Shown here piece after piece: positions 15,037 to 62,604 of a stretch of 64,000 bases of DNA. Position 1 is the first letter of the stretch. Every line of letters begins with the position of its first letter. The DNA is from a virus: IMG/VR virus record IMGVR_UViG_3300032163_000005, positions 30,024-94,023 of that record, one strand, 5' to 3'. The notes below the pieces were generated by a model. It was not told the origin of the DNA. It saw only the letters and a program-made list of their open reading frames with translations, and searched no databases. The position numbers were made by a program, and so were the translations under genes.

Positions 15037-17613
15037 TTAGGCCGCTTGGGGCAGTTGTTCTGTGACCGTGACCGATTCACCAATCTGCGTCTCGAGCACG
15101 AGTGCATCGATGGATGAGAGCGTCCTCACCTTGATGATGAGTCGGAATATGCCGAGCGCCAACGTGTCTGGCGTGTTGCCGCTCTTGGGATCAAGCGTGT
15201 AGCCCGCAATCCGTTGAAACGCCGGATTGTTTGCCGAGAGCAAGCTGTCGAGGAACCCACGAAACTCCGACGTGATGGCTTGGCGCCTTTGGAAGGTGTT
15301 GAGCTTCTTTCCGAATGCTCGGCCCCTTCGTGCAAGCGTGTCCTGGATGAAATCTGCCATACGACGACGCGCGATGTTGCGGAGCTGAGGGAAGGTTCCC
15401 GGATCAACACTCGTGACGCCGCTCTGGAAGATGAGAACGCCATCATCAATGCGTGGTGCACAGATACCGTTTGCTCGGAACAGCTTGTAGTCGTCCACCG
15501 TGTAGTTGGCTGCGTTGGACGAGCTCTCGAGCGCAACAACCGCCGAGGTGAACGATGTGAGCTGGCCGGGGTTCTCTTCCGGCGCGAGCTGACTAAGGAT
15601 CGACGCAAGGAAGCCGTCTGAACCGAGGTCCACAAGACCATCAGCAGTGAAGCCTGCACCACCGCTGAGACCCCGCCGCGCGATAAGCGGAACGAGGGAT
15701 CGGACGCCTGGATACGTGTAAACAACACGTTGATCGCGATACGCGCCCACGCCCGGTTCCGCCACACGCGAGAGTGCTTGCGCTCGAGATGTCCCAAGTG
15801 GTGGTCGGACCATTCCCATTCGCCCAAAGAGATTGCTCGATGCGCTGAGCACATTCTCTCGAACCTTGCGACGAAGCGCGTTCGACTGACGTGCGCTGTA
15901 GATGATGTTCGCTTCGCGTGAAGGCTGTTGTGGATCAAGCGTGGCATCTAGAGCCGTCGCGTACTGCGAATCGATGGCCGCTTCGGAGAGCGCCGCGGTG
16001 ATGAGTTGCGGATTGACGACGTCGAAGCTCCCGAGGTCGGGTGGTTGATCCACCACAACGATGGTGCCTGCTGTTCCTGAAAGCCCCGATCCATCATCGA
16101 GTGCATGACGAACCTTGACCGAGAACGGTCCGGCATTCGCGGTGTAGACCGATCCGATGAGCGTCGGAGCATCGAACCGAAGCGTTTGCATCGTGACGAA
16201 GACGCGCGTGTTGAGCGCATTACGAACGACCGTTCCCGCGGGAATGTTGCCCGCCACGATCGCTGGAACGCTGATGGTCTGAACGATGAGCCCAAGGTCA
16301 GAGAGGACCGAAGCGGGAGCTCCGACCACGCGAACCTGTCCGCCATTCTTCCGACCGCGGAGAAGCATGTGAGTGGCATCGAGCGATGTTGCCATCGTGA
16401 AGCCCGCCGCCGTGTTGATGTTCGCGATGACGGTTGCTTGGGATTGCGCCGCTGCGATCGTCACGTTGAAGTTGGCTTCATCATCCACGCCAAGCGAGAG
16501 CACACCCGTTCCAACAGTCGGGAATGTCTGCGCTGTTGATCGAAGGTTTGCGATGCCATCGTTCGATCCTTCTTGCGTGGCAACGAATCCAAGAGCCGTC
16601 GCTGTCGTGGCCGGTCCCACTTCGATGTAGTCGCCCGAGGCCACGAAGTTTTTGCTGACGCGAAGACGGCCCGAGGAATCTTGTTCGACGGTCGTTCCTG
16701 TGATCGCTGCCTCAACGATCACCTTGATCTCATTGAAGACGACTGCATCGATGTCCGACACATTGCCTGTGCCTGCGGTCGTGGCGAGCGTGAGATTGAG
16801 CGCTGTGAGAACGCTGGCCGTGCCTGCGACGATGCGCACTTGACTGCCCGTTCCGCGCCGAATGGCCGTGAACGTGATGATGTTGCCGCCACCATCCGAC
16901 GCAAACGTGAAGCCTGCATACGCGTTAATGCGCGCGATGACCTGCAGTTTTGTCTGATCCGCTGCGAGAAACGTCACGATGAAGTTGGCCGCCGAGTCGT
17001 ACCCGAGCGTGAGTGTTTCACCACCCGTGAAGAGTGTTGGGTAGACGCCCGCACCGCTGTTGACCGTTGCAGCCGTCGCGCTGAATGTCGCGCTCACTGG
17101 GCCAGCGCCAATGTCGAGAGCAAGAACTTGCGCGGGTTCGAGGTTGTACGCGAACGATGCAAGCCCTGTTACGAACGCGCGTCGTTGAAACTCGACAGCT
17201 CCCACACTCGTGTCCACGCGAAGACAGAGGAGCCTCTTGAACTTCTTTCCGTTGAGCTGAACGAACGCATTGCCGTTCCAGAATTCATCAACAAGAGCTC
17301 CGTCTACGCGACGCTTCCGCGCTGATGGGTTGTTGCCTGGTACACCGCCGTAACGGTATCCGAGCTCCCCAAGGGAGTTGACGAAGTCGGTCGTCCCTGT
17401 TGGTTCGACCATGCGGACGTTGTTGTCCATCCCGTTGGCGTTCCCGCCCGTCGCAAACTCGCCATCTTCGTACTCGCCAGCACAAATGACGGTCCCCGTT
17501 CCGACGCCGGAGATGGACGCAGGAGGGTCCAAATCCAGAATATTTACGGACTCAATTTCGAGAAAGACCTCGTTTCCTGGGTCCGAAAGGAACCTTCTTA
17601 AAAAAACACTCAT
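15037..17613 (-). CDS. tail sheath protein
   Basis: C-terminal GI......G....SGVT.....RNIARRRMADFI sheath motif; 858 aa with inserted domains. Confidence 0.9.
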   Translation of the reverse strand: MSVFLRRFLSDPGNEVFLEIESVNILDLDPPASISGVGTGTVICAGEYEDGEFATGGNANGMDNNVRMVEPTGTTDFVNSLGELGYRYGGVPGNNPSARKRRVDGALVDEFWNGNAFVQLNGKKFKRLLCLRVDTSVGAVEFQRRAFVTGLASFAYNLEPAQVLALDIGAGPVSATFSATAATVNSGAGVYPTLFTGGETLTLGYDSAANFIVTFLAADQTKLQVIARINAYAGFTFASDGGGNIITFTAIRRGTGSQVRIVAGTASVLTALNLTLATTAGTGNVSDIDAVVFNEIKVIVEAAITGTTVEQDSSGRLRVSKNFVASGDYIEVGPATTATALGFVATQEGSNDGIANLRSTAQTFPTVGTGVLSLGVDDEANFNVTIAAAQSQATVIANINTAAGFTMATSLDATHMLLRGRKNGGQVRVVGAPASVLSDLGLIVQTISVPAIVAGNIPAGTVVRNALNTRVFVTMQTLRFDAPTLIGSVYTANAGPFSVKVRHALDDGSGLSGTAGTIVVVDQPPDLGSFDVVNPQLITAALSEAAIDSQYATALDATLDPQQPSREANIIYSARQSNALRRKVRENVLSASSNLFGRMGMVRPPLGTSRAQALSRVAEPGVGAYRDQRVVYTYPGVRSLVPLIARRGLSGGAGFTADGLVDLGSDGFLASILSQLAPEENPGQLTSFTSAVVALESSSNAANYTVDDYKLFRANGICAPRIDDGVLIFQSGVTSVDPGTFPQLRNIARRRMADFIQDTLARRGRAFGKKLNTFQRRQAITSEFRGFLDSLLSANNPAFQRIAGYTLDPKSGNTPDTLALGIFRLIIKVRTLSSIDALVLETQIGESVTVTEQLPQAA

Positions 17614-17695: not shown

Positions 17696-18535
17696 TCACT
17701 CCGAATCCCGCGGTCCGAATGGATCGCAGGGATCGGGAACGAACGGTTTTTCAGCGTCAATCAAGAGCTGAATGCGCGGATCAGTGGGTTGTGGGTCTTG
17801 GAGCTGAATGAGGTCGTTCGTCTGCGGATCAGCATCCACTGCAACTTCGGCCTGAACGGTGACCGGTAGATAGTTGACCAAGCTCACGAGCGTGAACCGC
17901 ATGTCGAGCGTGAGTCTGGCGCGTCGTCGGTTCAGAACATTGTCCGGTTCATCGAAGAGCTCGCGCTGTTCGAGCGAGAACGAAACGAGCTGATTGAAGT
18001 AGTCGGGCACTCGAAACCGAAGGGCGTAGCTCTGCTCAGATGGTGAGAACGCCGCTTCGAGTCCAGCGAGGATGGCGCGTCGTTCCGCCTTTTTTGCACA
18101 CCAAATCTCGATGACGAGATTCTCTATGTACTCGGATTGCCACTGAATTACGGTGCCTTTGGCATAGACATCGCGCGAGTCTTCTTGCAGGTAAGTGGAG
18201 AATCCGATCGTCTCGTACGCAACCGGCACGTTGCCCGAGATGAACGCGATGGATGGGAATCGAAGGTCCGACTCGTTGTCTGGCCACTCGATGTGGATGT
18301 CATCGAGTGGGATCTGAAAGTCGATGGGAGCTCCGCGCTTCTTCGTGGTGCGGTCAACGTCACCTTCACGGAAGAATGTGAGCTCGGAGATGTAGCGTGC
18401 GAGGATGCGAAGACATGCTGTGCGACCATCGGCCGCGGGTGGGGGCGGATTGGGCTTGGGCGGAAATCCGACAGCTCCCCAAGGAGTACCTTGAAAGAGC
18501 TTCAGAAGGCCGTCTGAGAGCTTGGGGATGCCCAT
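17696..18535 (-). CDS. tail terminator/completion protein (putative)
   Basis: FPSIAF and L.IEIW motifs; position before sheath. Confidence 0.6.
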   Translation of the reverse strand: MGIPKLSDGLLKLFQGTPWGAVGFPPKPNPPPPAADGRTACLRILARYISELTFFREGDVDRTTKKRGAPIDFQIPLDDIHIEWPDNESDLRFPSIAFISGNVPVAYETIGFSTYLQEDSRDVYAKGTVIQWQSEYIENLVIEIWCAKKAERRAILAGLEAAFSPSEQSYALRFRVPDYFNQLVSFSLEQRELFDEPDNVLNRRRARLTLDMRFTLVSLVNYLPVTVQAEVAVDADPQTNDLIQLQDPQPTDPRIQLLIDAEKPFVPDPCDPFGPRDSE

Positions 18536-19071
18536 TACTTGAAGCTCTTTCCAAGAGCTCGTTGGAGCTCCTTCTTGAGGTAGCCTTCAAGACCTTGAAG
18601 CCCCTGCTCGAGGATCCGAAGCCCGCCTTTGCCACCTGCCGATCCGCGATTGAAGATGCCCTTTTTCCTCATGCTATGCGCGATGGCGAATGCAACGCCA
18701 CGAGCGGCGTCAGTCGCGCGTTTACCCTTACCTCCAACCAACCCCTTTCGCTTGGCCCATTTCGCGAGCGCATCGATCATCACGCGACCTGGTTTGACGT
18801 TGGCTGCGCGTACGCCGCCCTCGATAAGCGGCGCTTGTACTGACGCGTTGATGATGTCCGCACCTCGTTTGGTAGACCGAACACGCCACGCTGCGCGATA
18901 GATGCCGCGATCTACAGGTGGAGGTTTTTGCGCGGGGATGAGTCGTACCTGTATGTCTTGAACGATGTGAAGAGCTGCAGCATGGATGGCAGTGTGTGCG
19001 GCTTTCTCAAACCCCTTCGTGATGTGGATTTGAATCTGCCCTGCTTCGTTGCTCTCGAACCGCTTGGACAT
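18535..19071 (-). CDS. neck protein (HK97 gp10-like)
   Basis: PPVDRG.YRAAW, A..IE.G, L.KWAKRK, AFAIA.S..KKG motifs. Confidence 0.75.
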   Translation of the reverse strand: MSKRFESNEAGQIQIHITKGFEKAAHTAIHAAALHIVQDIQVRLIPAQKPPPVDRGIYRAAWRVRSTKRGADIINASVQAPLIEGGVRAANVKPGRVMIDALAKWAKRKGLVGGKGKRATDAARGVAFAIAHSMRKKGIFNRGSAGGKGGLRILEQGLQGLEGYLKKELQRALGKSFK

Positions 19072-19102
19072 GGTTCAGAGCATAGCGCGGCATCAATGGG
19101 AT

Positions 19103-19747
19103 ATGAGCAAACGAGAATGTCCGGTTTGCCTTCGCATTCGGCGAGCATGCATTTGTCGTTCAACGCGCTGTGAAGACTGCAACCTTCCCAACCGTGAGTG
19201 TTGGTGCCGTCACTTCGATCCCAACACCAAAATTCTGACATTTGAAGAGTCGGAGAAATTCCCTGCGTTGATCCGAGATTTGTCGGTCATTCAGGTTCAA
19301 CAAATCTCCGATGCTCTCGATCACCATCTCGAGCGCATTCTTGGTCCCGACGTCCGAGGAGCGTGCACCTACGCATACGATGTCGATGGCAACATCACGT
19401 TGCTTTGCTTGTTCTGGATCCAGTGGACTCAATCAGCTTCATCGGTAGAGAACGAGCGAACACTCTCAGTGACTCCCAAAGTTTGGCAAGATCGCAAAGA
19501 GATCATGCAAAAGGAAGGTGTTTCCTACCAACAATCCGCAGGGATCCCATCCGGTGTGCGTGGGTTTTTCGCGCGATCCGTTTTGGGAATCATCGAGAAA
19601 TTCGATGTCACGAATCTCAAACCAACATCGTTCCAAGAGTTGATCGATCTTCTACACGTCCTATACGACGCTTGCGAAGAGACCAAATTCATCGGGCACT
19701 GGCAGGACTCTGTGTTCTCGATTGAAACTGACTGGCATGAGGTCTAG
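19103..19747 (+). CDS. opposite-strand inserted gene with Cys-rich N-terminus
   Basis: CPVC..C.C..C.DC..C.C.H then globular region; fills the gap in the minus-strand operon. Confidence 0.6.
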   Translation: MSKRECPVCLRIRRACICRSTRCEDCNLPNRECWCRHFDPNTKILTFEESEKFPALIRDLSVIQVQQISDALDHHLERILGPDVRGACTYAYDVDGNITLLCLFWIQWTQSASSVENERTLSVTPKVWQDRKEIMQKEGVSYQQSAGIPSGVRGFFARSVLGIIEKFDVTNLKPTSFQELIDLLHVLYDACEETKFIGHWQDSVFSIETDWHEV

Positions 19748-22982: not shown

Positions 22983-23009
22983 TCCTTCACCTCACGAGGA
23001 ATGTACTCC

Positions 23010-23052
23010 AAAAAAACGAAGGGTGCTCACCCGTGGAGATGAACACCCGTCG
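23010..23052 (-). terminator. intrinsic terminator after the major capsid gene
   Basis: CGACGGGTGTTCA...TGAGCACCCTTCG followed by T7 on the minus strand. Confidence 0.75.
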
Positions 23053-23106
23053 CCCACCTGAACGCGCAACCCAAGGAGGAGTGCTTGGCTTACGCGTGAG
23101 AGTCTA

Positions 23107-24528
23107 CTACGCCGCGAATTCGAGCACCACTGCGCGACGGAATTGCTCCACTCCGTTTGGCGCAAGGATGTCCGAAGGCACAGGGAAGCTCGTGGAAGCG
23201 GTCCACGCGAGACCGACCTTCTGCTGCGCGCGATCGATCGGCGCACGGATGATGAGACGGATCCGTTCGGTCAAGATCTGAATGCCGTTGTTCACGACGG
23301 TGAATTCACCAATCTTGCCCGTGACGCCCGCCTCGCTCATGAACGCCTTTTGCTCATCGAGCCAGCGTTCATAGATCGAGCCACGCCCCGTGATGACGAC
23401 GCGACCAACGTTGATGCCGTTGCCATTGACGACTTCGGCTCCGAGCTCGCGCGCGTACCGCCCGATCGCACCTACGGGAGCTCCCGTTGCAGCAGATGTG
23501 TCGATGAGCTGTCCACTGTTGAGGAGCGCTGGGCTTTCCGTGTTCATGAAGAACATGACGCCAGAGAGCGTGCCGATAAAGCCTTCCTTGTAGATGACGT
23601 GCTCAGGCAAGCTCTGATTGAGGCGCTGGAACACGGGATCTGCGAAGACTTGCGCATTCGCCAGTGGCGAGATGTGCGCGTGGTAGAAGCCGTCCTCATG
23701 CGGCGGAACCGACGCGTTGCGAAGGAACGCAACGGCGTTGATGGCTTGCTGCAAGACGAATGTGTCTGCAGGACCGATGGCATCGATCGAATCGCCGCCC
23801 GATGCACGAACGATCCGAGGCGCCACGAGAGTTTTGATTGGCGTCCGCGTTGCAGCGAATGCCGTGCCGAGTGCCGCGCTGAGAAGCAATGTTCCTGGCC
23901 CATCGAGGTCCGCAGGATCCGCGGGAATGGTACCAATGACGTTCGCAGCCACGGCGCCGACACCAGTGCCCACTCGAATCGCGAGCGGTGACGTGGTGCT
24001 GACGGGGGTTGGACGTGCGCTGACTGTTGGATTCAGGACGAACCGGAACCCGTTGAGCGCAGCCACCTGAATGGTAGTCGCTCCCGCAAGGAGCGCCGTG
24101 TTCGCGACGGTCTGTCCTGAGAGGTAGTTCTTGAAGAGCGCGTTTCGTGCAACACGGTTCATTGTCTGACCTGCATTCAGGCCCAACGTGTGAATCTTGC
24201 GCATGAAGAGCGATGCGTTCGCTGTTGCGCTCGTTGGCATGTCGACGTCATCCGCCGATCCAAACTGATTGAGCTCCGCCGACCATTGCTCGTTGTAGGA
24301 GCTCTGGGGTGTGAGGTCCGCACCTGGTGTGAGTGGACTAACGGCGGGCGCGAGAAGTCCGGTTCGGGTCATGAAGACCTCATTACCGGTGTTCATCGGC
24401 CACTCTTCCGGCGCTGCTTCCGCGCGGAACGCGAGGTTCGGATAGAGCGAATCGTGGAACGCCCTCTCGATGAGACCGCGCTGGTTCAGATCGAGGATGG
24501 CAGGTGGAATGCCGAGAAAAAGAGACAT
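23107..24528 (-). CDS. major capsid protein (N4 gp56-like HK97 fold)
   Basis: 473 aa after scaffold; L.QFG, AGQTMNRVAR, Y.AHISP, G.IG.L.GV.F motifs; followed by a terminator. Confidence 0.85.
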   Translation of the reverse strand: MSLFLGIPPAILDLNQRGLIERAFHDSLYPNLAFRAEAAPEEWPMNTGNEVFMTRTGLLAPAVSPLTPGADLTPQSSYNEQWSAELNQFGSADDVDMPTSATANASLFMRKIHTLGLNAGQTMNRVARNALFKNYLSGQTVANTALLAGATTIQVAALNGFRFVLNPTVSARPTPVSTTSPLAIRVGTGVGAVAANVIGTIPADPADLDGPGTLLLSAALGTAFAATRTPIKTLVAPRIVRASGGDSIDAIGPADTFVLQQAINAVAFLRNASVPPHEDGFYHAHISPLANAQVFADPVFQRLNQSLPEHVIYKEGFIGTLSGVMFFMNTESPALLNSGQLIDTSAATGAPVGAIGRYARELGAEVVNGNGINVGRVVITGRGSIYERWLDEQKAFMSEAGVTGKIGEFTVVNNGIQILTERIRLIIRAPIDRAQQKVGLAWTASTSFPVPSDILAPNGVEQFRRAVVLEFAA

Positions 24529-24708
24529 GTGGATGACCTCCGAGAGTGAAGTGGTCTCCGAGCGACCAAGCTCGGGTCTTCCTTCACGTTCGCGTCACCC
24601 CGTTCCACCTTCTTACCGTGAGGCGTGCCTACGTATTTGGGGTTGTTCGACCGTTTAGCTGACAATCCGGAAGTTACACTCACTTCCGCGTATCGCGCAA
24701 ACGATCGA

Positions 24709-25620
24709 TTAGAAATTCCAACCGTTCTGCCTCTTGAAGTCACGCCATTCCTTGTCGTTGACGCTTCCCGCCTGTCCCGGCGCGAATGTCTTCGGCGCTG
24801 CAATCCCCGCAGGATTCACATTTTGCGGACGCTGAATGTTCGCACCATTCGTCAATGGTTGTCCTGGAATGGGTACTGCGGGAGTGGGTGCTACAACCGG
24901 CCCAGCGCCGCCAATGGCAGATCCGCCCGTTGATGGAATGGCCAACGCTCCATCTTCCGCAACCGCGCGCTGACACCACGCTTGAACCACGGCATCTGGA
25001 TCAGCGAGCTCTGCATCTGAGAGTCCTGAGATGTACTCTGCAAGATTCTTGAGCTCGTGCTTCATGTACCGCGGGTTGATGTGTTGCGCGACGATCGCAA
25101 CGACATGGTGGTCTTGCTCGGCCACTACACGTTCGGTTTGCACCTGTTCCGCGCGCGTCTCTGCTTCGACCGCACGACGTTCAGCCGCCGCAAGTTGTTC
25201 GGTGAGTCGCTGCGTTTCCGTGAGGTCAGCGAGTCGTCTCTCTTCTCGCTCCGCGCGCATGACACGAAGCTCATCGAGGTCCGCTCGAATCTGATCAACG
25301 TTGTCCGTTCCGAATCGCTCGCGAAGTTGTTTTTTCGCGTATCGATCGAGCCGTCCTTTGAGAGCTGTTGGCGGGAGCTCGATGAGATCGGCGTCGTTGG
25401 GGATGTCGTCAGCATCACCAATTAGCTTGCGCGTTGGGACTCGCCCCGCGGGAGCTGGAATGGGAACGGGGATGGCGGGCTGGGCTGGCGCAGCAACGGG
25501 AGGAGAGACGGGAGGTGGTTGCTGCGCTTGCTGTTGAACGGGCGGGGTTGGCGCCTGTTGTGGTGTGCTCGCGCCACCAGGGGGCTGTTGCCCCACTCCC
25601 GTATCTCCTTGCATCGACAT
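24709..25620 (-). CDS. capsid scaffolding protein
   Basis: Pro/Gln-rich termini with central coiled coil, upstream of the capsid gene. Confidence 0.75.
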   Translation of the reverse strand: MSMQGDTGVGQQPPGGASTPQQAPTPPVQQQAQQPPPVSPPVAAPAQPAIPVPIPAPAGRVPTRKLIGDADDIPNDADLIELPPTALKGRLDRYAKKQLRERFGTDNVDQIRADLDELRVMRAEREERRLADLTETQRLTEQLAAAERRAVEAETRAEQVQTERVVAEQDHHVVAIVAQHINPRYMKHELKNLAEYISGLSDAELADPDAVVQAWCQRAVAEDGALAIPSTGGSAIGGAGPVVAPTPAVPIPGQPLTNGANIQRPQNVNPAGIAAPKTFAPGQAGSVNDKEWRDFKRQNGWNF

Positions 25621-25646
25621 GGTTCTCTCCCTCGACTGATTTTGAG

Positions 25647-25670
25647 TTTAGACAGATCGATCTGTCTAAA
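25647..25670. repeat. 24-bp palindrome, copy 2
   Basis: Exact; adjacent 25675..25687 reads AATCAAGAAGTTA on minus, matching the IHF consensus WATCAANNNNTTR. Confidence 0.95.
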
Positions 25671-25696
25671 CTTGTAACTTCTTGATTTTGCGTGGA

Positions 25697-26383
25697 TTAC
25701 TGTGTGCCGGAATCGCCTGTGAGGAGCGCATCCACGTCCGTTGTGGGCACCGTTGAGAACTTCACACGTGCTTGCGTGACTGCATCTGCAGCCGCGAAAG
25801 TCACCGTCGACTTGTCCAGGTTGAGACGCGCTTGTCCCGCCGCGGGAGCTCCTGCACCCGGAACGAGAACGATCTTCTTGCCGACCGACGTGCCGATCGT
25901 CGCCTCGACTTCGAGAAGATTGATGACACCCTGCCCCGTGAACTGCGAAGGGAGCGTGAGGACGTTGGCGGCAACCGCGAGAGTTGTCTCCTGAATGTCC
26001 TGCTTCTCGGGCTGGTAGACAACATCGACGCTCGTGATGGCATCCGCGGCCAACGTAACGATGTCGCCATTGGGGCCGACTGCGATCTGTCCCGTTGCTG
26101 GCGTGGTGCCGTATGCGACCACGGCAAGCTCTCCCTGCCCCGCCGTCGCTGTCCGAGCGTACGCGCGATGAATGTTGTGAGCTTTCGCGTCATCCGGAAG
26201 AACGAGCGCGAGAAGCGTTGCGAGACTGTACGAGCTCGCCACAGGGGTCTTCTTGCGAAGGAATGTTGTGCCTGCACGCAACACAGAGCCAACCTTGATC
26301 GTCCGGAATTTGTCCGGAAGTGTGTTGGGGTTGGCGTTGTCGAGTGTCGACTTGAGAGAAGTTGCGCTGATTCCAATGGTCAT
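25697..26383 (-). CDS. virion structural protein (possible head decoration)
   Basis: 228 aa, Ala/Thr/Val-rich, GGAGG RBS, internal duplication (TPATGQIAV / APAAGQARL). Confidence 0.6.
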   Translation of the reverse strand: MTIGISATSLKSTLDNANPNTLPDKFRTIKVGSVLRAGTTFLRKKTPVASSYSLATLLALVLPDDAKAHNIHRAYARTATAGQGELAVVAYGTTPATGQIAVGPNGDIVTLAADAITSVDVVYQPEKQDIQETTLAVAANVLTLPSQFTGQGVINLLEVEATIGTSVGKKIVLVPGAGAPAAGQARLNLDKSTVTFAAADAVTQARVKFSTVPTTDVDALLTGDSGTQ

Positions 26384-26450
26384 GTGACGGTCCTCCGCGT
26401 GAACGAGAGAGGGATATCACCCGACGCGAGGATCGGGCTAGTGATGTCTA

Positions 26451-26487
26451 GCCGAGAGATGAAGCCCTCTCACTAGCTTTGATCTAC
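26451..26487 (-). CRISPR. solitary degenerate copy of the CRISPR repeat
   Basis: 26454..26479 GAGAGATGAAGCCCTCTCACTAGCTT is identical to the array repeat over 26 nt, followed by TGATCTAC versus GATCCAC; same orientation as the array. Confidence 0.9.
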
Positions 26488-26897
26488 AGGTTACCCGAGA
26501 CAACGTATTCGATGGTGCCCGACCCCTTGGCTTCGAGAAGCAGCAAATAATTCCCTGTTGGGAATTCGATGATGGCGAGACCTTGAACGGGAATGACGGC
26601 CACGACGTCTGGGCCTGAGTCCGCCTTGGTTGTCAGTCGGAGCTGAAATGGACTTGTTGTCCGAAGGAACAGGAAGTTTCCTTGCGTGACAGTTTCGCTT
26701 GTCCCGACACCATCGAGCGCTGCAAATGCCGATGGTGAATCGACTTGTTTCGCCGCAGAAAACGAAGCCGCCGCATTTTTCTGAATGGGATAGCTCGAGA
26801 AAGGAATCGTTGTCGTCCCTGCGGGGAACGCGCAATCACCCGCGCCAAGCGGTCCTTTGACGAGCGTTCCTGAGAGGACGATCGAATCCACGTTCAC
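26484..26897 (-). CDS. virion structural protein (putative)
   Basis: 137 aa, beta-rich, in the head operon. Confidence 0.6.
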   Translation of the reverse strand: MNVDSIVLSGTLVKGPLGAGDCAFPAGTTTIPFSSYPIQKNAAASFSAAKQVDSPSAFAALDGVGTSETVTQGNFLFLRTTSPFQLRLTTKADSGPDVVAVIPVQGLAIIEFPTGNYLLLLEAKGSGTIEYVVSGNL

Positions 26898-27229
26898 TCC
26901 CCCGAGAGCTTGAAGGGTTTCGCCTTCGGCTTGTCGACGATCTGTCCGATCTGCATCCCACGTTCATCATTGTCCGCCGTGTCGTCAGTCTGCTCGAATG
27001 GCAAATCTCCACCATCCGGAACAGAGCTCTCGTTGTAACGATCGGCAGGATCGCCAGCTTCTTGTGGGCGATTCTCTTTGGTGAAGTCGCGTCCACCATC
27101 CGACGTGTTTGATGTTGGCTCTTCAAGGAAGTTGTGAGCTCCCGAAGATGCACCCGTCGCTTGCGTTGCTCCCTTCGAGTCACCGAAAGGGGAATTCGCC
27201 GCATCACCCGGAGTTTTGCCTTCTGCCAT
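26894..27229 (-). CDS. disordered acidic protein ending KPFKL
   Basis: AGGAG RBS before MAEGK. Confidence 0.6.
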   Translation of the reverse strand: MAEGKTPGDAANSPFGDSKGATQATGASSGAHNFLEEPTSNTSDGGRDFTKENRPQEAGDPADRYNESSVPDGGDLPFEQTDDTADNDERGMQIGQIVDKPKAKPFKLSGE

Positions 27230-27280
27230 GTTCGTTCTCCTGTCCTGTCTCAACAGATGTACCCGGAGAATGCCCTCACG

Positions 27281-27490
27281 TCACTTGTTGACCTTGAAAG
27301 GCTTTCCGGATTGCTCGAGTGGCTCTGCTTTTGGCCACGGAATGCGCGGCGGATGATCGGGCACATCATTGATGCACTCTTCGTTGAGATGCCGATCATC
27401 CTTGGCAGGATTGAGATCGGCAATTTGCCGTTGAGGCTCCGCGTTTTGGTTGAGCGGAGCCGGCGTGGTGATCTTAAATGGCTTTGACAC
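27281..27490 (-). CDS. small protein with KPFK at both termini
   Basis: GTG start, SKPFKI...KPFKVNK. Confidence 0.5.
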   Translation of the reverse strand: MSKPFKITTPAPLNQNAEPQRQIADLNPAKDDRHLNEECINDVPDHPPRIPWPKAEPLEQSGKPFKVNK

Positions 27491-27517
27491 ACATCTACGC
27501 AAGCACGAGATCAGCGG

Positions 27518-28207
27518 CTACGCGAGGACGAAGTAGAATACATCCACGGAAAATGCTCCCGCGGTGATGGTTGAGAGGTTCACGGTGCTCGTGATGGTTG
27601 CGATGAGCTGAGCTGCGCTCTTCTTCTGTCCAACCCACCCTGTCGAATCTCCTGCAGGCCCATCACCCGCAGCGCCCACTGTTTTGAGATCAACACCTTT
27701 AATCGCACATTGCGTATCAGCGGCTACGCCGACGTCCACCGAGGTGACATCTGTATCACCTGCATTTTGAACCTTGGTCGCGACATCGACCTGAGCTCCG
27801 AGAAGACGAGCATTGCTCGGAAGCACTGTGTCGATGTTGATGGTCCCAGTCATGAACGCGCCGAGAGCCGCGATCATGGCTTGCGTCACCACCACGGTTT
27901 TCTTTTGAACGCGCGCTGTAATTGCCGGCGATGCCGATGCTGCGTCTGCTGCTTCAGTCGCTTTCTGCGAGGCATCGACCGCCGCTTGCATGATGTTTTG
28001 CATATCGGTTTCATTGATGCCCCGATTGACATGCGCGTTCGTTGCATTCGTTGCTGCAGTTGCAACCGTCGCATCTGAGCTCGGCCAAAGGAGAGCGCCC
28101 GCTGCCTGCAGTCCTGGAACGTCATCGATCGTGCTGTCGATGAGCGAGCCGGGAAGATTCTTCACCCCGGCGAATACGATGGTGTTGATGATGTAGTAGG
28201 TCGCCAT
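27518..28207 (-). CDS. virion structural protein (putative)
   Basis: 229 aa, AGGAG RBS; N-terminus resembles that of 36166..36786 (Y...N.I.F.GV....G......L/M..AG..L). Confidence 0.65.
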   Translation of the reverse strand: MATYYIINTIVFAGVKNLPGSLIDSTIDDVPGLQAAGALLWPSSDATVATAATNATNAHVNRGINETDMQNIMQAAVDASQKATEAADAASASPAITARVQKKTVVVTQAMIAALGAFMTGTINIDTVLPSNARLLGAQVDVATKVQNAGDTDVTSVDVGVAADTQCAIKGVDLKTVGAAGDGPAGDSTGWVGQKKSAAQLIATITSTVNLSTITAGAFSVDVFYFVLA

Positions 28208-28258
28208 GGTCAGAATCTCCTGTTCGAGGGAGAGGTATCAGAATGCGGCAAGAAGGAA

Positions 28259-28420
28259 ATGATGATGAACACGGATGCTCATGGGTGTTTGACCATCACC
28301 TTCTCTCGTGCACAGATCTACGCACTAATGCGCCGTTCGCGTCCTCGCGCAAAACATCGCGTGATCAAGAAATGGGTCAACGCGTTCTTCCGAAACTGCC
28401 AAGGTCCACAGTCGTCATGA
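28259..28420 (+). CDS. putative 53-aa opposite-strand ORF (not in ORF track)
   Basis: AGAAGGAA then ATGATGATG; MMMNTDAHGCLT...VIKKWVNAFF...; leader shared with the cas12 gene. Confidence 0.35.
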   Translation: MMMNTDAHGCLTITFSRAQIYALMRRSRPRAKHRVIKKWVNAFFRNCQGPQSS

Positions 28421-29387
28421 GAGGACGTGGTGGAGCTGCACCCTTTCGTTTCTCAAGCTTCCATCGCGCGTGAATCTCACCATCAGGCCGCCAAGCAAGT
28501 GTTGGCGGAATTGGCCATGATTGACGGTGTGTGACGACGATTTCACGATCGTTGGGACGATTGGGCGGATGTTGCATCAATCCAAACCACGTCTCGAATG
28601 GCTCGTTTGGACGACGGATCTCGCCATGGCACGCGATCGAATCGCTACCCGTCCGATTGTCGAACGTCGCGCAAAGAATCTTCACGAGATCTCCGAGTTG
28701 TTCGTGTGCTTCCTGCGTCGCTTCGAACGTCGCACGCCCATACGCGCCCATCGTCTCTGTACGAACGATGCGCTCTGACCAAGACGCGGGAGCTCCTTGC
28801 AAAAAGGGACTCGCATCAACAATCTGTTTGCGCGTGTCTTCGAACGATGAACGTGTGAGGAGATTCGTTCGAAGAATGTTCTCGAAGTGTCCAACCACGT
28901 TCATTCCGTAACGTTGAAGAATGCCGATTCTGGCTTTGTGCGGCTCGGCATCTGCTCCCTCGGCAGGTGTGCCACTTGAGGCAAGACGTCGGAGCACACT
29001 TGCACGAGCTCCCGATGTCGCGGCATCCATGATCGAGGATTCGTCGAGCGCGAGAGCTTGTGTCCCGATGCCCTTGTATTGCCGCTCGGCTGCGTTGAGG
29101 TAATCGACTGTTCCTGTAGCTGCGACGCTTGCCGCTTGCTCTGCGCCATCGATTGCGAGATCACGCATTCCAGGAAGCACAAGCCCACGAAGCACATCTC
29201 GAATCTGCGCCAACGTCGCGCGCATTCGAATTTCCGTGAACGTGCCTGTTGGAGGCATCGCACGAAGCCGCTCCACGAGTTGAGTCTCAGCATCTTTGAG
29301 CATTCCTCGCGTGTTGGTTGTTCCAACCCGTTGCGCAATTCGAATCGCCGTTTCGCGATTAGCTTGGATGGCTCCTAGAACGCTCAC
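28377..29387 (-). CDS. head morphogenesis protein (Mu gpF / SPP1 gp7-like)
   Basis: ERIVRTE..AY, DNRT....A.HG, HPP.RPNDR motifs; follows portal. Confidence 0.85.
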   Translation of the reverse strand: MSVLGAIQANRETAIRIAQRVGTTNTRGMLKDAETQLVERLRAMPPTGTFTEIRMRATLAQIRDVLRGLVLPGMRDLAIDGAEQAASVAATGTVDYLNAAERQYKGIGTQALALDESSIMDAATSGARASVLRRLASSGTPAEGADAEPHKARIGILQRYGMNVVGHFENILRTNLLTRSSFEDTRKQIVDASPFLQGAPASWSERIVRTETMGAYGRATFEATQEAHEQLGDLVKILCATFDNRTGSDSIACHGEIRRPNEPFETWFGLMQHPPNRPNDREIVVTHRQSWPIPPTLAWRPDGEIHARWKLEKRKGAAPPRPLMTTVDLGSFGRTR

Positions 29388-31198
29388 GATTCCTCAGGAT
29401 TGAGTCCTTCGTCTGGAACACCCTGATCCGGCATTACCGGTTGTGGCGGGCCCCCTGGCGCCACAGCGCCACCAATGCCAGGGAACATCTCCGCCTGCTG
29501 CCCCGCCATCTTGGCGCCTTCTTCCTCCATGCGCTTCTTTTCCTCAGTGGGCTGGACTCCAAAGGCCGCCGCTGCGAGCTCCACAGCCGTCTCTTCGCTC
29601 ATAAAGGCTTTTCCGCCAGTCGCCGCAGTGAGATTTGTCACCATCTTGGTTTGATCATCAGGCGTTGGTGGGAAGTAGGGGGGCCATTGAAGATTGACCT
29701 CTCCACCATCGCCAGGCTCACGCGGAATCTTGACAGGACGTGGCGGTAGCGGCGTTCCCGTTACAGGATCAACTAATGGGAGCTTGCTGATTGGATCGAG
29801 TGTCTGTGATTGCTCGATGCGTGGTGGAAGAAGAAGAACCGGAGGTGGTTGAATCGCGGGTTGGCCCATCTCATCGATCACGGGTTGGCCCATCTCATCG
29901 ATCATGGGTTTGGGCTCGCGAAGATTTCGACGTGCAACCTCGCCCATGTTGGTCAGAATGCGTTCAAGCGCTGTTCCATATTGCTCACGAAGTACATCTG
30001 TCTTTGAGAGCATCGGTGCATAGACCACCTTCATCGCGACGCTCGAGACGCCTTGCGCTGCGATGTCTGCAGGATCGGGAACCACGCACTGGGCCGTCTC
30101 GAGCACAGTGCGTCGAAACGATTCAATGAGCTTCGTTCCCGCTTCTAACGATGTGCCTGAGAGCTCGAGATAGTCCGCATCACCAGACTCGCCAACGACG
30201 AGCGCATGCTCAGATCCTTTGAGCACGCCGGAACGCGAGACGAGCTCAGGATCAAGTTTCAACTTGAGCGTTGGATCGAGATTGAGTGTGGCGCCTTTGA
30301 GCACAACAGACATGAGAATGTCCATTGCATCGAATTCCTGAAGGAGGCCTTCGTAATCTGGGAACCCATCAATCTCGTCAGAGGGAAGATTCTGAATCCA
30401 CTCGAAGTGAATGACACCATCGCCATGCGCGATGCTCTTTTGCTCGTCAATTTCCCAGAATGGATCCTTGTCCTTTTCGTAGAGCGCATCTTTGAAAATG
30501 ATATCAGCGTCGGGCGTCCAATCGCGACGAAACCAATAGTAGACCTTGATGAATTCCTTCTTGGAGCCATCCCATTGCACGCGAAAGAATGTGTAGATCT
30601 CCGTCACGTGATCAGGAATGAGAAGGCACCGATCGGCCCACGCGTGAACGTAGAGGTTCTTGGCATTGTGGACCTCGAACCGAGGGCGGCCTTTGTAGAA
30701 TGCCCACGACACACCCACCGTGCCCATGGATCCTCCGAGCGTGCGAGCTCGGATCATGTGCATTGGAAGTCGGCCTACGCGCGAAACAGTCTGCAAAAAG
30801 TCTTCGTCACGTTCGTCGCCATCAACATGGATCTGCGGAAACCGATTCTCGCCAAAGATGAGGCTCGTGAATGAGTCAACGATGACTTTCGAGAGGTGGT
30901 ACCGCGCGCTTGGGCGACGTGACGCGAGCGGAACAAATTGGTGAAACTTCTCCGCGCTGATGATGGGAACTGTTGATTGCGGACTGAAGACACGACCCTC
31001 GAAGTCGAAGCCCTTGTGATTGTGCTGCGAGCCTCGATAGTGCGCTTCGAGACGATCGAGCTCGTAGTACCGCTCACCCACGAGAAGAGACCGGGGCTGA
31101 ATGCCCGGCATCGTGGTGTTGCGAGCTCCGAAGCTTGAGAACGCGAGTGCATTCTTGCCATCGATCGCGATTGCGCCGGCTTGCGAGAGATTCGCCAT
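29384..31198 (-). CDS. portal protein (SPP1 gp6-like)
   Basis: HYRGSQ, SKVIVD.FTSLIFG, SSVAMK..Y.P...K, MS.ETAV motifs. Confidence 0.85.
   Translation of the reverse strand: MANLSQAGAIAIDGKNALAFSSFGARNTTMPGIQPRSLLVGERYYELDRLEAHYRGSQHNHKGFDFEGRVFSPQSTVPIISAEKFHQFVPLASRRPSARYHLSKVIVDSFTSLIFGENRFPQIHVDGDERDEDFLQTVSRVGRLPMHMIRARTLGGSMGTVGVSWAFYKGRPRFEVHNAKNLYVHAWADRCLLIPDHVTEIYTFFRVQWDGSKKEFIKVYYWFRRDWTPDADIIFKDALYEKDKDPFWEIDEQKSIAHGDGVIHFEWIQNLPSDEIDGFPDYEGLLQEFDAMDILMSVVLKGATLNLDPTLKLKLDPELVSRSGVLKGSEHALVVGESGDADYLELSGTSLEAGTKLIESFRRTVLETAQCVVPDPADIAAQGVSSVAMKVVYAPMLSKTDVLREQYGTALERILTNMGEVARRNLREPKPMIDEMGQPVIDEMGQPAIQPPPVLLLPPRIEQSQTLDPISKLPLVDPVTGTPLPPRPVKIPREPGDGGEVNLQWPPYFPPTPDDQTKMVTNLTAATGGKAFMSEETAVELAAAAFGVQPTEEKKRMEEEGAKMAGQQAEMFPGIGGAVAPGGPPQPVMPDQGVPDEGLNPEES
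29857..29904. repeat. 24-bp tandem duplication inside the portal gene
   Basis: CGGGTTGGCCCATCTCATCGATCA x2, encoding IDEMGQP twice. Confidence 0.9.
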
Positions 31199-44471: not shown

Positions 44472-44682
44472 CGATGCATTTCCTCTTCATGAAAATCACA
44501 CACACCGTCTGTCGTGGCTGGACGGCGACATTTCGGTTTGAAACATCGCGTGTTTCGCCATCGTACCCACGCTGATCGATTCGATTCTTGTGCGACTCGC
44601 TGCAACATTTCCGGAGCATAGCCGCCGTGGCTTTTGAGGAATTCAACATAGCTCGGGTTTTCTCGTCCGCTTGATCCACGTT

Positions 44683-59382: not shown

Positions 59383-59862
59383 GTTGAGAGATGAAGCTCT
59401 CTCACTAGCTTGATCCACCGGTGTTCCTGTCGAGGGGACCAACTACTTCCACTACTCGTTGAGAGATGAAGCCCTCTCACTAGCTTGATCCACGGATCAC
59501 CCACTCGGGATCGTCCGCGTCGAGCGCAAGTTGAGAGATGAAGCCCTCTCACTAGCTTGATCCACGAAACCCAGTGCGAGGCGAACGTGTGGCGCAGATC
59601 GTGGTTGAGAGATGAAGCCCTCTCACTAGCTTGATCCACCTTCTCGGGCTCGAGCCCCATCGCTTCGGCCTCTTCGCGTTGTTGAGAGATGAAGCCCTCT
59701 CACTAGCTTGATCCACAGATGGATGCTCGCCGCGTTGGTACACGCAATTGCTTGTTGAGAGATGAAGCCCTCTCACTAGCTTGATCCACCCGATTCGCGG
59801 AGTGTCCATCTCTCACCCTCTTGAACGTTGAGAGATGAAGCCCTCTCACTAGCTTGATCCAC
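59383..59862 (-). CRISPR. CRISPR array, 7 x 36-nt repeats GTGGATCAAGCTAGTGAGAGGGCTTCATCTCTCAAC, 6 spacers of 36-41 nt
   Basis: Repeats start (plus coordinates) at 59383, 59458, 59530, 59604, 59681, 59754, 59827. TGAGAG/CTCTCA stem. The single variant repeat at 59383 marks the trailer, supporting minus orientation. Confidence 0.98.
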
Positions 59863-59881: not shown

Positions 59882-61375
59882 TCATTCCGCAGCATTCAAC
59901 TCCGGTTCGCGAGAGGTGGCAACCATCCGAAGATGATCCCCCGTTCCGATTCCATCAGCATTCTTTTTCTCTTTTCGTTTTGATACTTTGCGCGTGCGAG
60001 CACGAGGGGGGTTTCCATCACCAATCCACCGCTCGCTTTGATAGCGGAGAACCCGTGCGGCATTTTCATCCTGATGATGCTCGGCCCCGCACTCACATTT
60101 CCAGCGAAGCGCTGGACCAACCTTTTCTGCACGAATCAACCCGCACGATGAACAAGTCATTGTAGTGAATGCACTTGGAAGCCAATCAACACGAGCTGCC
60201 CCAAACCGTTGCAGGATGACGGTTTGGAGAATGTGTATGGCCGCACTCGAGCGCCATCGTTCAAGTGATGCTGTGTCGCCTTCTCCGACCCAAGCTTGCA
60301 TGGGCATGTCTTCAAGTGCGACGTATCGATATTTTCGCGCAAGTGCATCTGCGAATCGTTGGTAGGCATCAAGTCGGCGTCGAATAGCTCGATCTCGGAC
60401 ACCTGCTTCGATGTCTTCGAGATGGCGATCACGTTCCCGCCACCACAGTGCACCTAGATCTTGAGTCGTGAGCGCGATCCGTCGCATGCGCTCTTTGTCC
60501 TTCCAACGAAGCGCATGCTGCGCACCGGGAAGCTGTGCTTCCGATACATGTCGTTTGGCTTCGTCAAAATTGACATCTCGTATGCTCCGGATCGAATCGG
60601 AATATTGGAACGCCCGGATCGTATCGATGTGGAGAGACCCGACATCAACTACACCGTTCTCTTCTCCGTCGTAGGTCGCCACGAGCATGCCGAGCTCACC
60701 ATTTCTTCGCCAACCGACGTCTACACCGACAATGCCCAACCCAATGTCCTTTTTCCTATCAGGCTCAAATTCGATGGTGACCAACGCTTCCCAACGAAAT
60801 CGATGTCCCGAGCGCGTTCGTTGAACAGCAACTTGTTTGACAACAGCGCCATCCGGGAAATCCCGATGAAGTTTGATGGGCCATGTGATCGTTTGGCCAG
60901 CCGCCAGCGCGCCAACATGGATGGTGAGCTCGGCGTGTCGTCTGGCATTGAGGCTTGTGAGAGAAATACGTTTGCTCGTCGTCCAATCCAACGCTGGAAA
61001 TTGAGCTCGCGAATGAATCTCTCCGCCAATGGATCCTGTGCCATCCCAATGCTGCATCTTGATTGGATCAAGACGACTCGCTTTGCTCGCTGAGAGCATT
61101 GCAGCCTCAATAAGCCAATAAGTACCCGCGTCGAGTAGATGACCCCTACGTCGTCGTGCCCCCCGGATCCTCTCATTCTGAGTTTGATGAGTGAACGCCA
61201 TGACATGAGATGCATCATCCTTGCTCTCAAGGAGTGTGCGAAAATCTCGTTTGGCCGCGTTGTAAATCCGTCGCAACTCTTCACGATAGAGCCACGCTTG
61301 CCCGAGCAATTGAAGGGCCCGGTCCATTTCTTTGGGAGCCCGGCATCCGAATTTGTAGACCCTATTTTCAATCAT
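59882..61375 (-). CDS. cas12: compact type V CRISPR effector, Cas12m (V-U1)-like, 497 aa
   Basis: RuvC-I VGVDVGWR, RuvC-II VALED, Zn finger CSSC...CEC, RuvC-III QDENAA; WDGTG and LHR.FP motifs recalled from Cas12m; AAGGA RBS before ATG 61375; array 19 nt downstream. Confidence 0.85.
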   Translation of the reverse strand: MIENRVYKFGCRAPKEMDRALQLLGQAWLYREELRRIYNAAKRDFRTLLESKDDASHVMAFTHQTQNERIRGARRRRGHLLDAGTYWLIEAAMLSASKASRLDPIKMQHWDGTGSIGGEIHSRAQFPALDWTTSKRISLTSLNARRHAELTIHVGALAAGQTITWPIKLHRDFPDGAVVKQVAVQRTRSGHRFRWEALVTIEFEPDRKKDIGLGIVGVDVGWRRNGELGMLVATYDGEENGVVDVGSLHIDTIRAFQYSDSIRSIRDVNFDEAKRHVSEAQLPGAQHALRWKDKERMRRIALTTQDLGALWWRERDRHLEDIEAGVRDRAIRRRLDAYQRFADALARKYRYVALEDMPMQAWVGEGDTASLERWRSSAAIHILQTVILQRFGAARVDWLPSAFTTMTCSSCGLIRAEKVGPALRWKCECGAEHHQDENAARVLRYQSERWIGDGNPPRARTRKVSKRKEKKNADGIGTGDHLRMVATSREPELNAAE

Positions 61376-61433: not shown

Positions 61434-61622
61434 TCACTCTTCCGCCTCCTGCATCTTCGCTTCGAAGTCCCTGAGCTCCGGTGCTGGCTTGTGATTCGTT
61501 TTGAAGATCTCGCAGATCCACTCGAACGCATCTTGATAGGTGCCATCACCCGCACGAACAATGTCTGCGACTCGCGCCCATGCTTTGGCGTTACCACTGA
61601 GAATGCGCTGTTCAAAATTCAT
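61434..61622 (-). CDS. small hypothetical protein upstream of cas12
   Basis: 62 aa, ATG start. Confidence 0.55.
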   Translation of the reverse strand: MNFEQRILSGNAKAWARVADIVRAGDGTYQDAFEWICEIFKTNHKPAPELRDFEAKMQEAEE

Positions 61623-62561: not shown

Positions 62562-62576
62562 CTCTCCCACACCACT

Positions 62577-62604
62577 ATGATAGCTCACCCTAGGTTTCTG
62601 TCAA
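62577..62604 (-). promoter_or_regulatory. sigma70-like early promoter
   Basis: TTGACA-16nt-TATCAT, then GTGGGAGAGATG. Confidence 0.7.

What the first reader, a model, noticed from the sequence alone, without database searches (positions are those of the whole stretch)
26390..26487. Solitary CRISPR repeat 33 kb from the array, embedded in the head operon leader
Seen: 26 consecutive nt identical to the array repeat (too long for chance in 64 kb), with an altered 3' end (CTCTCGGC versus CTCTCAAC), between a stop codon and the RBS of the 228-aa gene preceding scaffold and capsid. The sequence following it on minus (TAGACATCACTAGCCCGATC) is complementary to the repeat's 5' half (GATC..GCTAGTGA), so alternative hairpins can form. 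Inference: (a) a Cas12 processing or binding site that regulates the phage's own late head mRNA, (b) a crRNA mimic (Racr/SRU-like) that titrates or switches off the effector late in infection, (c) a one-guide regulatory crRNA, or (d) an antisense anti-repeat if transcribed on plus. Any of these would couple a phage Cas effector to virion morphogenesis.
Basis: partly seen in the sequence, partly recalled or inferred. Interest (0 to 1): 0.9.

Follow-up and report, generated by a model that had tools for sequence, protein, structure and literature searches.

The report
Lone Cas12m repeat before head genes
A 94-kb phage that carries its own small CRISPR protein (Cas12m-like) has one extra, structurally intact copy of that protein's RNA handle between two virion-head genes, so the protein probably also binds or cuts the phage's own late messenger RNA; this has not been tested at the bench.

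Summary
At 26451-26487, on the minus strand, lies one CRISPR repeat copy. Its 26-nt core is identical to the 7-repeat array at 59383-59862, it has the array's orientation, and it is the only extra copy in the 94-kb genome (covariance model: 39.6 bits; next best hit 13.7). It fills the gap between the stop codon of a 137-aa gene and the RBS of a 228-aa gene, inside the portal-to-capsid gene string. The effector is Cas12m-like. Mapped on the published Cas12m2 crRNA structure, the solo copy keeps the stem, A-24, G-23 and C-1. Its changes fall in the disordered 5' end, in one pair that still pairs (U-A to U.G), and at one conserved base (A-2 to G). None of 35 related phage loci has the element, and 10 related records checked whole lack cas12m. 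Other Cas12m-bearing phage contigs do carry lone repeat units, often just upstream of start codons and with compensatory stem changes. My best reading (0.45) is a cis-acting Cas12m binding or processing site on the late mRNA. A neutral ectopic copy (0.3) is not excluded. I found no target for the adjacent "guide", and no RNA data exist. This scan has already noted dispersed Cas12m repeats in other phages.

The parts
26451..26487 (-). Solitary CRISPR repeat unit (37 nt; positions -36 to -1 of a Cas12m-type crRNA scaffold, with one inserted A)
   Evidence: 39.6 bits, E 4e-8
26454..26479 (-). 26-nt core identical to the array repeat; holds A-24, G-23 and the 6-bp stem with its 8-nt loop
   Evidence: 26/26, E 5e-10; mapped on the Cas12m2 scaffold described in PMC10442227
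26484..26486 (-). TAG stop codon of the upstream 137-aa ORF, formed by the first bases of the repeat copy (array GTGG, solo GTAG)
26436..26453 (-). Perfect 6-bp hairpin (GGCTAG / CTAGCC, 6-nt loop) made from the altered repeat tail GGC plus the first 15 nt of the flank. Its 3' half also pairs with GCTAGTGA of the repeat, giving an alternative fold.
   Evidence: CTAG is 6-fold under-represented genome-wide, yet occurs 3 times here.
26384..26450 (-). 67-nt 'pseudo-spacer', which is the 5' leader of the 228-aa gene; holds RBS GGAGGA (26391-26396) in a predicted anti-SD hairpin
   Evidence: no second match anywhere
26484..26897 (-). Upstream 137-aa ORF. Its C-terminal motif (IEY..SGN) is conserved at the same junction in relatives.
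25697..26383 (-). Downstream 228-aa ORF of unknown function. It belongs to a conserved phage family (more than 250 homologues) and is followed by a 303-aa ORF and the major head protein gene (23107-24528).
59383..59862 (-). CRISPR array: 7 repeats of 36 nt and 6 spacers of 36-41 nt. The degenerate terminal repeat is at 59383-59418; 69 nt further on is the ATG of the next ORF (59313).
59882..61375 (-). cas12m-like effector gene (497 aa from the ATG at 61375; the open frame extends to a TTG at 61615)
   Evidence: PDB 23vw_A Cas12m, E 2.5e-21; family profile against 23vw_A, E 1.7e-44

Best explanation
The element is a sense-strand copy of the phage's own Cas12m crRNA handle, embedded in the polycistronic late (portal-to-capsid) transcript. 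It sits exactly in the 100-nt gap between the 137-aa and 228-aa genes. The Cas12m-like effector most likely recognises this handle as it recognises array repeats. It would bind the 6-bp stem-loop and flanking bases, and probably cut just upstream of it, next to the stop codon of the 137-aa gene. This would split the late mRNA at that junction and leave the effector on the 5' end of the 228-aa/scaffold/capsid message. Possible outcomes are uncoupled stability or dosage of the downstream head genes, and capture of some effector late in infection. What is shown: the element's identity, uniqueness, orientation and position; that it retains the scaffold determinants; and that similar lone units recur in front of ORFs in other Cas12m-bearing phage contigs. 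What is inferred: transcription, binding, cleavage and any effect on expression.
For: (1) The effector is Cas12m-like. Characterised Cas12m proteins process their own pre-crRNA within the repeat and need no tracrRNA (PMC11013384).
(2) The array repeat fits the Cas12m2 scaffold position for position: A-24, G-23, pairs -22..-17 with -8..-3, A-2, C-1 (PMC10442227). The solo copy keeps all of these except A-2. Its A-3 to G change turns a U-A pair into U.G. Its other changes lie in -36..-29, and -36..-30 is disordered in that structure.
(3) All 5 differences lie outside the 26-nt core. If changes fell at random the probability would be about 0.002.
(4) The stem is under structural selection in the family: 95.5% of cells are paired, 5 of 6 pairs show compensatory changes, and no shuffle of 500 reaches the observed covariation score.
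(5) The copy has the same strand as the array and as every flanking gene. No promoter or terminator is predicted at the junction.
(6) The pattern recurs. L046 (effector 61% identical) has 2 units directly upstream of the cas12m ATG and a 3-unit mini-array upstream of a ParB-like gene. L047 has a unit 38 nt upstream of the cas12m ATG. In the whole record G014, lone units lie 42 nt upstream of cas12m, 11 nt upstream of an integrase ATG, and 6 nt after the integrase stop, with compensatory stem changes. G013 and G011 have units 35 and 58 kb from their arrays.
(7) The element is absent from all 35 related loci, and 10 related records searched whole have no cas12m. Its presence therefore tracks the effector.
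Against: This is a single copy in a single genome, and no close relative could be fetched to test conservation. A-2, which is A in the other 26 units of the family alignment and forms the G-23:A-2 pair in Cas12m2, is G here, so binding may be weakened. The flank can fold with the handle into competing hairpins. Ectopic repeat copies are known to arise and decay in genomes with active CRISPR systems (PMC10120712). The 5 differences could also mean that only the core was ever copied. The RBS lies 50 nt or more from the handle, and masking handle plus guide does not change its predicted accessibility, so no direct translational mechanism is evident.
Confidence: 0.45

Rival explanations
1. Neutral ectopic copy or relic: a repeat, together with a short palindromic flank, was pasted by illegitimate recombination into a poorly constrained intergenic gap. 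It has no selected function, even if the effector happens to bind it.
For: The junction is highly variable among relatives (12-100 nt, unrelated GC hairpins), so an insertion would be tolerated. The element is seen in one genome only. The conserved A-2 is mutated. Excess ectopic repeat-like sequences are reported in CRISPR-positive genomes (PMC10120712). There is no homology between its flanks and the array leader or trailer that would point to a directed origin.
Against: Five changes with none in the 26-nt core is unlikely under neutral decay (about 0.002). The -3 change keeps the pair. The orientation is sense. Lone units recur in front of ORFs, with compensatory stem changes, in other Cas12m phages.
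Confidence: 0.3
2. Racr-like decoy: the abundant late transcript soaks up Cas12m late in infection, either the phage's own or a related host effector, giving a non-targeting complex.
For: It is a solitary repeat in a viral intergenic region, the class from which Racrs come (PMC10651486). The altered junction (GGC) and the absence of any target for the adjacent sequence fit a non-targeting complex.
Against: No promoter is predicted within 250 nt upstream, and it is not a small stand-alone RNA. The matching cas gene and array are the phage's own, and the host and its CRISPR content are unknown. A single site on an mRNA is a weak sponge. I see no evident benefit to the phage from switching off its own effector.
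Confidence: 0.1
3. Trans-acting one-guide crRNA: the handle plus the next 17-20 nt guide the effector to a DNA target in the host or a competitor.
For: The architecture (handle followed by sequence) is that of a crRNA, and Cas12m silences by binding DNA (PMC11013384).
Against: There is no second match of 11 nt or more to the first 20 nt anywhere in the 94-kb genome. There is no exact match of 22 nt in 596 Gb of prokaryote genomes, nor of 20 nt in IMG/VR. Part of the flank is self-complementary to the handle, and part of it aligns with the native leader of relatives, so it does not look like an acquired spacer. At its own locus the PAM position reads GGC, whereas the spacer-4 protospacers have TTC, TTT or ATC.
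Confidence: 0.05
4. Anti-repeat (tracrRNA-like) RNA transcribed from the plus strand.
For: A plus-strand RNA would be perfectly complementary to 26 nt of every crRNA handle.
Against: Characterised Cas12m effectors use a single crRNA without tracrRNA. No plus-strand promoter is predicted here. All neighbouring genes are on the minus strand. The site is 33 kb from the cas gene.
Confidence: 0.02

Closest known systems
Viral solitary repeat units (SRUs) and RNA anti-CRISPRs (Racr; Faure 2019; Camara-Wilpert 2023, PMC10651486)
   Same: A single CRISPR repeat copy in an intergenic region of a phage genome, keeping the repeat's hairpin, with no neighbouring repeat.
   Different: Published SRUs are typically just downstream of their own promoter, are not associated with cas genes, and mimic the host's repeats. 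This one mimics the phage's own array, lies inside an operon leader without a promoter, and sits in a genome that encodes the cognate effector.
Stand-alone repeat-like elements next to effector genes (SRUs upstream of cas12a, CreR/crlRNA mini-arrays; Shmakov 2023, PMC10120712; bioRxiv 10.1101/2023.03.10.532045)
   Same: A degenerate repeat outside the array in a system with a self-processing type V effector. Relatives L046, L047 and G014 do have units right upstream of cas12m.
   Different: Those elements lie within the CRISPR-cas locus, and their spacers partially match cas or cargo promoters. This one is 33 kb away in a structural-gene string, and no target was found.
Type V-M (Cas12m) crRNA handle (MmCas12m2, PMC10442227; GoCas12m and MsCas12m, PMC11013384)
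   Same: 36-nt repeat; 6-bp stem at -22..-17 / -8..-3; A-24, G-23, C-1; effector homologous to PDB Cas12m chains; T-rich 5' flank at protospacers.
   Different: The solo copy has G at -2 and a U.G pair at -22/-3. What follows it is an mRNA leader, not an acquired spacer. The effector family here is shorter (about 500 aa) and keeps a D-E-D RuvC triad.

Membership tests
Type V-M (Cas12m) CRISPR repeat / crRNA scaffold | Cognate effector homologous to Cas12m | tested here: met
   phmmer against PDB 23vw_A 'Cas12m', E 2.5e-21. Family profile A2 against the same chain, E 1.7e-44, with the WDGTG and LHR..PE motifs aligned.
Type V-M (Cas12m) CRISPR repeat / crRNA scaffold | Scaffold geometry: A-24, G-23, 6 pairs -22..-17 with -8..-3, A-2, C-1 (Cas12m2 structure, PMC10442227) | tested here: inconclusive
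   The array repeat meets every position. The solo copy meets all except A-2 (G here), and its pair -22/-3 is U.G instead of U-A. Whether G-2 still allows binding is not testable with these tools.
Type V-M (Cas12m) CRISPR repeat / crRNA scaffold | Stem supported by covariation across related units | tested here: met
   A3: 95.5% paired, 5 of 6 pairs with compensatory changes, 0 of 500 shuffles reach the covariation score. A4 (G014): 100% paired, 2 pairs compensatory.
Type V-M (Cas12m) CRISPR repeat / crRNA scaffold | T- or C-rich 5' PAM | tested here: inconclusive
   The first 24 nt of spacer 4 match integrase genes in 5 viral contigs (3 distinct sequences) with 5' TTC, TTT or ATC. Only one spacer was informative.
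SRU (SRUfinder definition, PMC10651486) | At least 90% identity and at least 90% coverage to a known repeat | tested here: inconclusive
   32 of 36 identical plus 1 indel over full length (89%), or 26/26 over 72% of the repeat. By their rule this is a borderline or 'partial' match.
SRU (SRUfinder definition, PMC10651486) | Intergenic, with no other repeat or partial repeat within 100 bp | tested here: met
   It lies between a stop codon and an RBS. The covariance model finds no second unit nearby. Only an 8-nt inverted fragment lies in the flank.
Racr (RNA anti-CRISPR) | Own promoter within about 250 bp upstream; expressed as a small RNA | tested here: not met
   No sigma-70-like promoter is predicted on the minus strand upstream of the element. 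Other promoter types are not covered by the scan.
Racr (RNA anti-CRISPR) | Mimics the host's CRISPR repeat and inhibits host interference | not testable with these tools
   The host is unknown. The repeat pattern is absent from viral contigs and metagenome contigs.
CreR / crlRNA mini-array | Two repeat-like units flanking a spacer | tested here: not met
   Only one unit scores with model R1. The flank shares only GATC and TCTCTC with the repeat at matching spacing (about 45% identity, near chance).
CreR / crlRNA mini-array | Spacer partially complementary to a cas or cargo promoter; located in the cas locus | tested here: not met
   The best other match in the genome is 14 of 15 nt in the PAM-distal part (E 0.6). 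The element lies 33 kb from cas12m.
tracrRNA anti-repeat | Transcribed antisense to the repeat, and required by the effector | tested here: not met
   No plus-strand promoter is predicted. Cas12m is reported to be tracrRNA-independent (PMC11013384). Transcription itself is not testable, since no RNA run is listed.

The most novel reading that the evidence does not exclude
Phage-borne Cas12m has a second job as a sequence-specific RNA-binding or RNA-processing factor for the phage's own messages. Lone copies of its crRNA handle would act as operators placed at gene boundaries: in front of cas12m itself, integrase or ParB in other phages, and in front of the head-gene block here. The CRISPR effector would then run a small post-transcriptional regulon that reaches virion morphogenesis. 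With one effector, one array and one lone handle, this 94-kb phage would be the minimal and most tractable example.
Probability: 0.3. Interest if true: 0.85.

Novelty: new variant of a known kind. Interest (0 to 1): 0.62.

Why it matters
Solitary repeats in viruses are known as decoys against host CRISPR. Repeat-like units next to cas genes are known as autoregulators. A lone handle that matches the phage's own effector and sits inside a structural-gene transcript fits neither case. If the effector binds or cuts there, a CRISPR protein has been domesticated by a virus to manage its own mRNAs. That would also offer a natural template for protein-guided mRNA processing tags. Because this phage has only one such site, a single stem mutation with a compensatory rescue would give a clean test. 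No paper in the held library describes Cas12m-associated lone repeats in phages.

Tried and rejected
The closest relatives of the 228-aa protein (P0002, 78%, 60-kb contig; P0008) could not be fetched, so conservation in near relatives is untested.
- **No RNA holder** was listed for 23000-29400. The one read-laying run used DNA contigs only. Run X2 (63% of words) has no listed contig over 26214-26815, so it says nothing about the element.
- **The repeat core** is absent from viral contigs and metagenome contigs. The 228-aa protein alone found nothing in viral contigs. Phage GenBank records gave no DNA match. Rfam found nothing in the window.
- **Target search for the pseudo-spacer:** own genome, genome contigs with 22 nt and viral contigs with 20 nt all returned nothing.
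- **Recombination origin:** the solo flanks against the array leader and trailer score no higher than unrelated comparisons.
- **Translational switch:** masking the handle plus 0-24 nt of guide leaves the predicted unpaired probability of the SD at 0.16-0.18. Rejected.
- **Second degenerate repeat (mini-array):** not supported by the covariance model.
- **Extra units in this genome:** none. The 15-nt match in the first 30 kb of the genome and the three GTGGATCAAGCG sites lack the hairpin.
- **Spacer 5:** its partial matches in related phages lie at inconsistent positions and were judged GC-rich chance matches.
- **L047 tRNA:** ARAGORN calls none. Rfam scores the stretch at the gathering threshold only.
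- **Complex prediction and structure prediction** were not used, because no protein-protein claim is made.

Full report
**What is there.** The window is the last 64 kb of a 94,023-bp virus record. A CRISPR array of seven 36-nt repeats and six spacers of 36-41 nt lies at 59383-59862. Directly beside it, on the minus strand, is an ORF (59882-61375 from its ATG, 497 aa). It carries a Cas12f1-like TNB domain. Its best solved relatives are chains deposited as Cas12m: 23vw_A at E 2.5e-21 for the single protein and E 1.7e-44 for a profile of 22 homologues, with the WDGTG and LHR..PE motifs aligned.

Several lines show that the array is read on the minus strand. The gene lies upstream on that strand. 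The one degenerate repeat is at the far end (59383-59418). In minus sense the repeat places its hairpin next to the spacer, as in type V handles. In minus sense, the first 24 nt of spacer 4 match tyrosine-integrase genes in five IMG/VR contigs, with TTC, TTT or ATC immediately 5'.

**The observation.** A short-word BLAST of the repeat against the whole genome returns the seven array copies and one 26/26 match at 26454-26479 on the minus strand (E 5e-10). Read outwards, the copy spans 26451-26487. Position 3 is A instead of G, there is one extra A in the A-run, and the tail is GGC instead of AAC. The G-to-A change creates the TAG stop of the upstream 137-aa ORF. That ORF's C-terminus (IEY..SGN) aligns with its homologues in relatives.

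After the copy, 67 nt lead to the ATG of a 228-aa ORF, with GGAGGA at 26391-26396. The surrounding genes are all on the minus strand:
- portal (29384-31198)
- a Mu F-like head protein (28377-29387)
- several small ORFs and the 137-aa ORF
- the element
- the 228-aa ORF and a 303-aa ORF
- the major head protein (23107-24528)

No promoter or terminator is predicted at the junction. A covariance model built from 27 related units scores the solo copy at 39.6 bits. Nothing else in the 94-kb genome scores above 13.7 bits, so the copy is solitary.

**Is it a usable handle?** Omura et al. (PMC10442227) describe the Cas12m2 crRNA scaffold as follows:
- positions -36..-30 are disordered
- A-24 is flipped out
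- G-23 pairs non-canonically with A-2
- positions -22..-17 pair with -8..-3
- C-1 is read base-specifically

The array repeat here has exactly this layout. The solo copy keeps A-24, G-23, the loop, five stem pairs and C-1. Its -3 change converts U-A to U.G, and G is the family consensus at -3. Its 5' changes fall in -36..-29, which overlaps the disordered stretch. The one real deviation is G at -2, where the other 26 aligned units have A.

All five differences lie outside the 26-nt core. If they were scattered at random the probability would be about 0.002. The stem itself is under structural selection in the family: 95.5% of cells are paired, five of six pairs show compensatory changes, and slid controls reach only 38-53%.

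**The flank.** The first 15 nt after the copy, together with the altered tail, form a perfect 6-bp hairpin. Its 3' half also complements GCTAGTGA in the handle. An 8-nt complement occurs in 3-4% of controls. CTAG, however, is six-fold under-represented in this genome, and three copies lie within these 104 nt. The block of roughly 45-50 nt therefore looks like one unit inserted relative to the nearest fetched relative.

The flank matches nothing else in the genome, in 596 Gb of prokaryote genomes, or in IMG/VR. At its own locus the PAM position reads GGC. I therefore see no support for a trans-acting guide. The SD is predicted to be paired whether or not the handle and guide are masked, so a simple translational switch is not supported either.

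**Relatives of the phage.** The 228-aa protein has more than 250 homologues. In 35 viral loci that keep the same gene junction, the gap is 12-100 nt, often holds an unrelated GC-rich hairpin, and never holds this element. Ten of those records were searched whole, eight of them at least 90% complete, and none has a cas12m homologue. The effector, the array and the lone copy are thus a lineage-specific acquisition.

**Relatives of the effector.**
- *L046 (61% identity)* has two units directly upstream of the cas12m start. An 11-nt antisense copy of the unit's 3' half overlaps the RBS and start codon. It also has a three-unit mini-array 102 nt upstream of a ParB-like gene.
- *L047 (56%)* has an array-like run upstream of cas12m whose last unit is 38 nt from the ATG. 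A tRNA-like stretch sits between two of its units.
- *More distant Cas12m-bearing phage records, fetched whole.* G014 has lone units 42 nt upstream of cas12m, 11 nt upstream of an integrase ATG, 6 nt after the integrase stop, and one inside an exonuclease VIII-like ORF. All of these are paired, with compensatory changes. G013 has two identical units 35 kb from its arrays, and G011 has one 58 kb away.
- *Ends of arrays.* In several of these loci, and in this window, the last array repeat is followed within 18-69 nt by the next ORF's start. This suggests that arrays and downstream genes share transcripts.

Earlier notes of this scan report the same pattern in several jumbo phages. I treat those as leads that agree with what I saw in my own loci.

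**Mechanism.** Characterised Cas12m proteins cut pre-crRNA within the repeat, upstream of the scaffold, without tracrRNA (PMC11013384). My best explanation (0.45) is that the effector treats the lone handle in the late transcript in the same way. It would bind, probably cut next to the stop codon of the 137-aa gene, and stay on the 5' end of the downstream head-gene message. The consequences for mRNA stability or dosage, and for the pool of free effector, are inferred.

The main rival (0.3) is a tolerated ectopic copy. Such copies are reported to arise and decay in CRISPR-positive genomes (PMC10120712), and this one has a mutated conserved base. A Racr-like decoy (0.1) lacks a promoter, and the host system it would mimic is unknown. 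A trans-guide (0.05) and a plus-strand anti-repeat (0.02) are poorly supported.

**Novelty.** This is a solitary repeat unit, which is a known kind, in an undescribed setting. It is cognate to the virus's own Cas12m-like effector and sits inside a structural-gene leader, 33 kb from the cas locus. I found no paper on this in the held library.

Noticed in passing
window 62520-62566 (promoter at 62577-62604, minus strand): On the plus strand this reads as the repeat hairpin split by a 27-nt insert (an exact 11-mer and an exact 9-mer of the repeat). On the minus strand it forms the first ~45 nt of a transcript from an 11/12 sigma-70-like promoter, so that RNA would be antisense to the crRNA stem-loop. 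It may be a regulator or an inverted repeat relic.
   Followed up: partly
window 59566-59603 (spacer 4): The first 24 nt match exactly the HDLRHTFAS box of tyrosine integrases in five IMG/VR contigs (L053-L057), with TTC, TTT or ATC just 5'. The phage's array seems aimed at integrases of other elements, with a TTN-like PAM.
   Followed up: partly
window 44669-44679 (-), 9903-9913 (+), 15930-15940 (+): The first 11 nt of the repeat plus a G (GTGGATCAAGCG) occur three more times in the genome without the hairpin. About 0.05 occurrences are expected by chance for one 11-mer. Unexplained; possibly a coding motif.
   Followed up: no
whole genome (G000): CTAG is about six-fold under-represented (58 seen, 356 expected from base composition). 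Ten of the 58 lie in the seven array repeats and the solo copy with its flank.
   Followed up: partly
L046:385-410: In the closest fetched relative of the effector, GAGAGATGAAG over the RBS and start codon of cas12m is the exact antisense of the 3' half of the repeat unit 12 nt upstream. This could be an autoregulatory hairpin.
   Followed up: no
L047:894-961: A tRNA-like stretch (Rfam RF00005, 29.2 bits against a gathering score of 29; not called by ARAGORN) sits between two Cas12m repeat units upstream of cas12m, as if released by repeat processing.
   Followed up: partly
L072 (G014) 17823-19665: An integrase gene (phrog_1, E 3e-26) is bracketed by two lone Cas12m repeat units with compensatory stem variants. 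The upstream unit abuts the RBS.
   Followed up: partly
L050:8287-9003: An N-terminal 236-aa fragment of a cas12m-like gene (52% identity) abuts an unrelated gene in a 157-kb contig of an Acidimicrobiales MAG. It is a decayed copy and hints at actinobacterial hosts for this effector family.
   Followed up: partly
window 59882-61375: D219, E355 and D436 (the RuvC-I, -II and -III positions) are invariant in 22 homologues of the effector. This clade may therefore be a canonical D-E-D type, unlike the non-cutting Cas12m2.
   Followed up: partly
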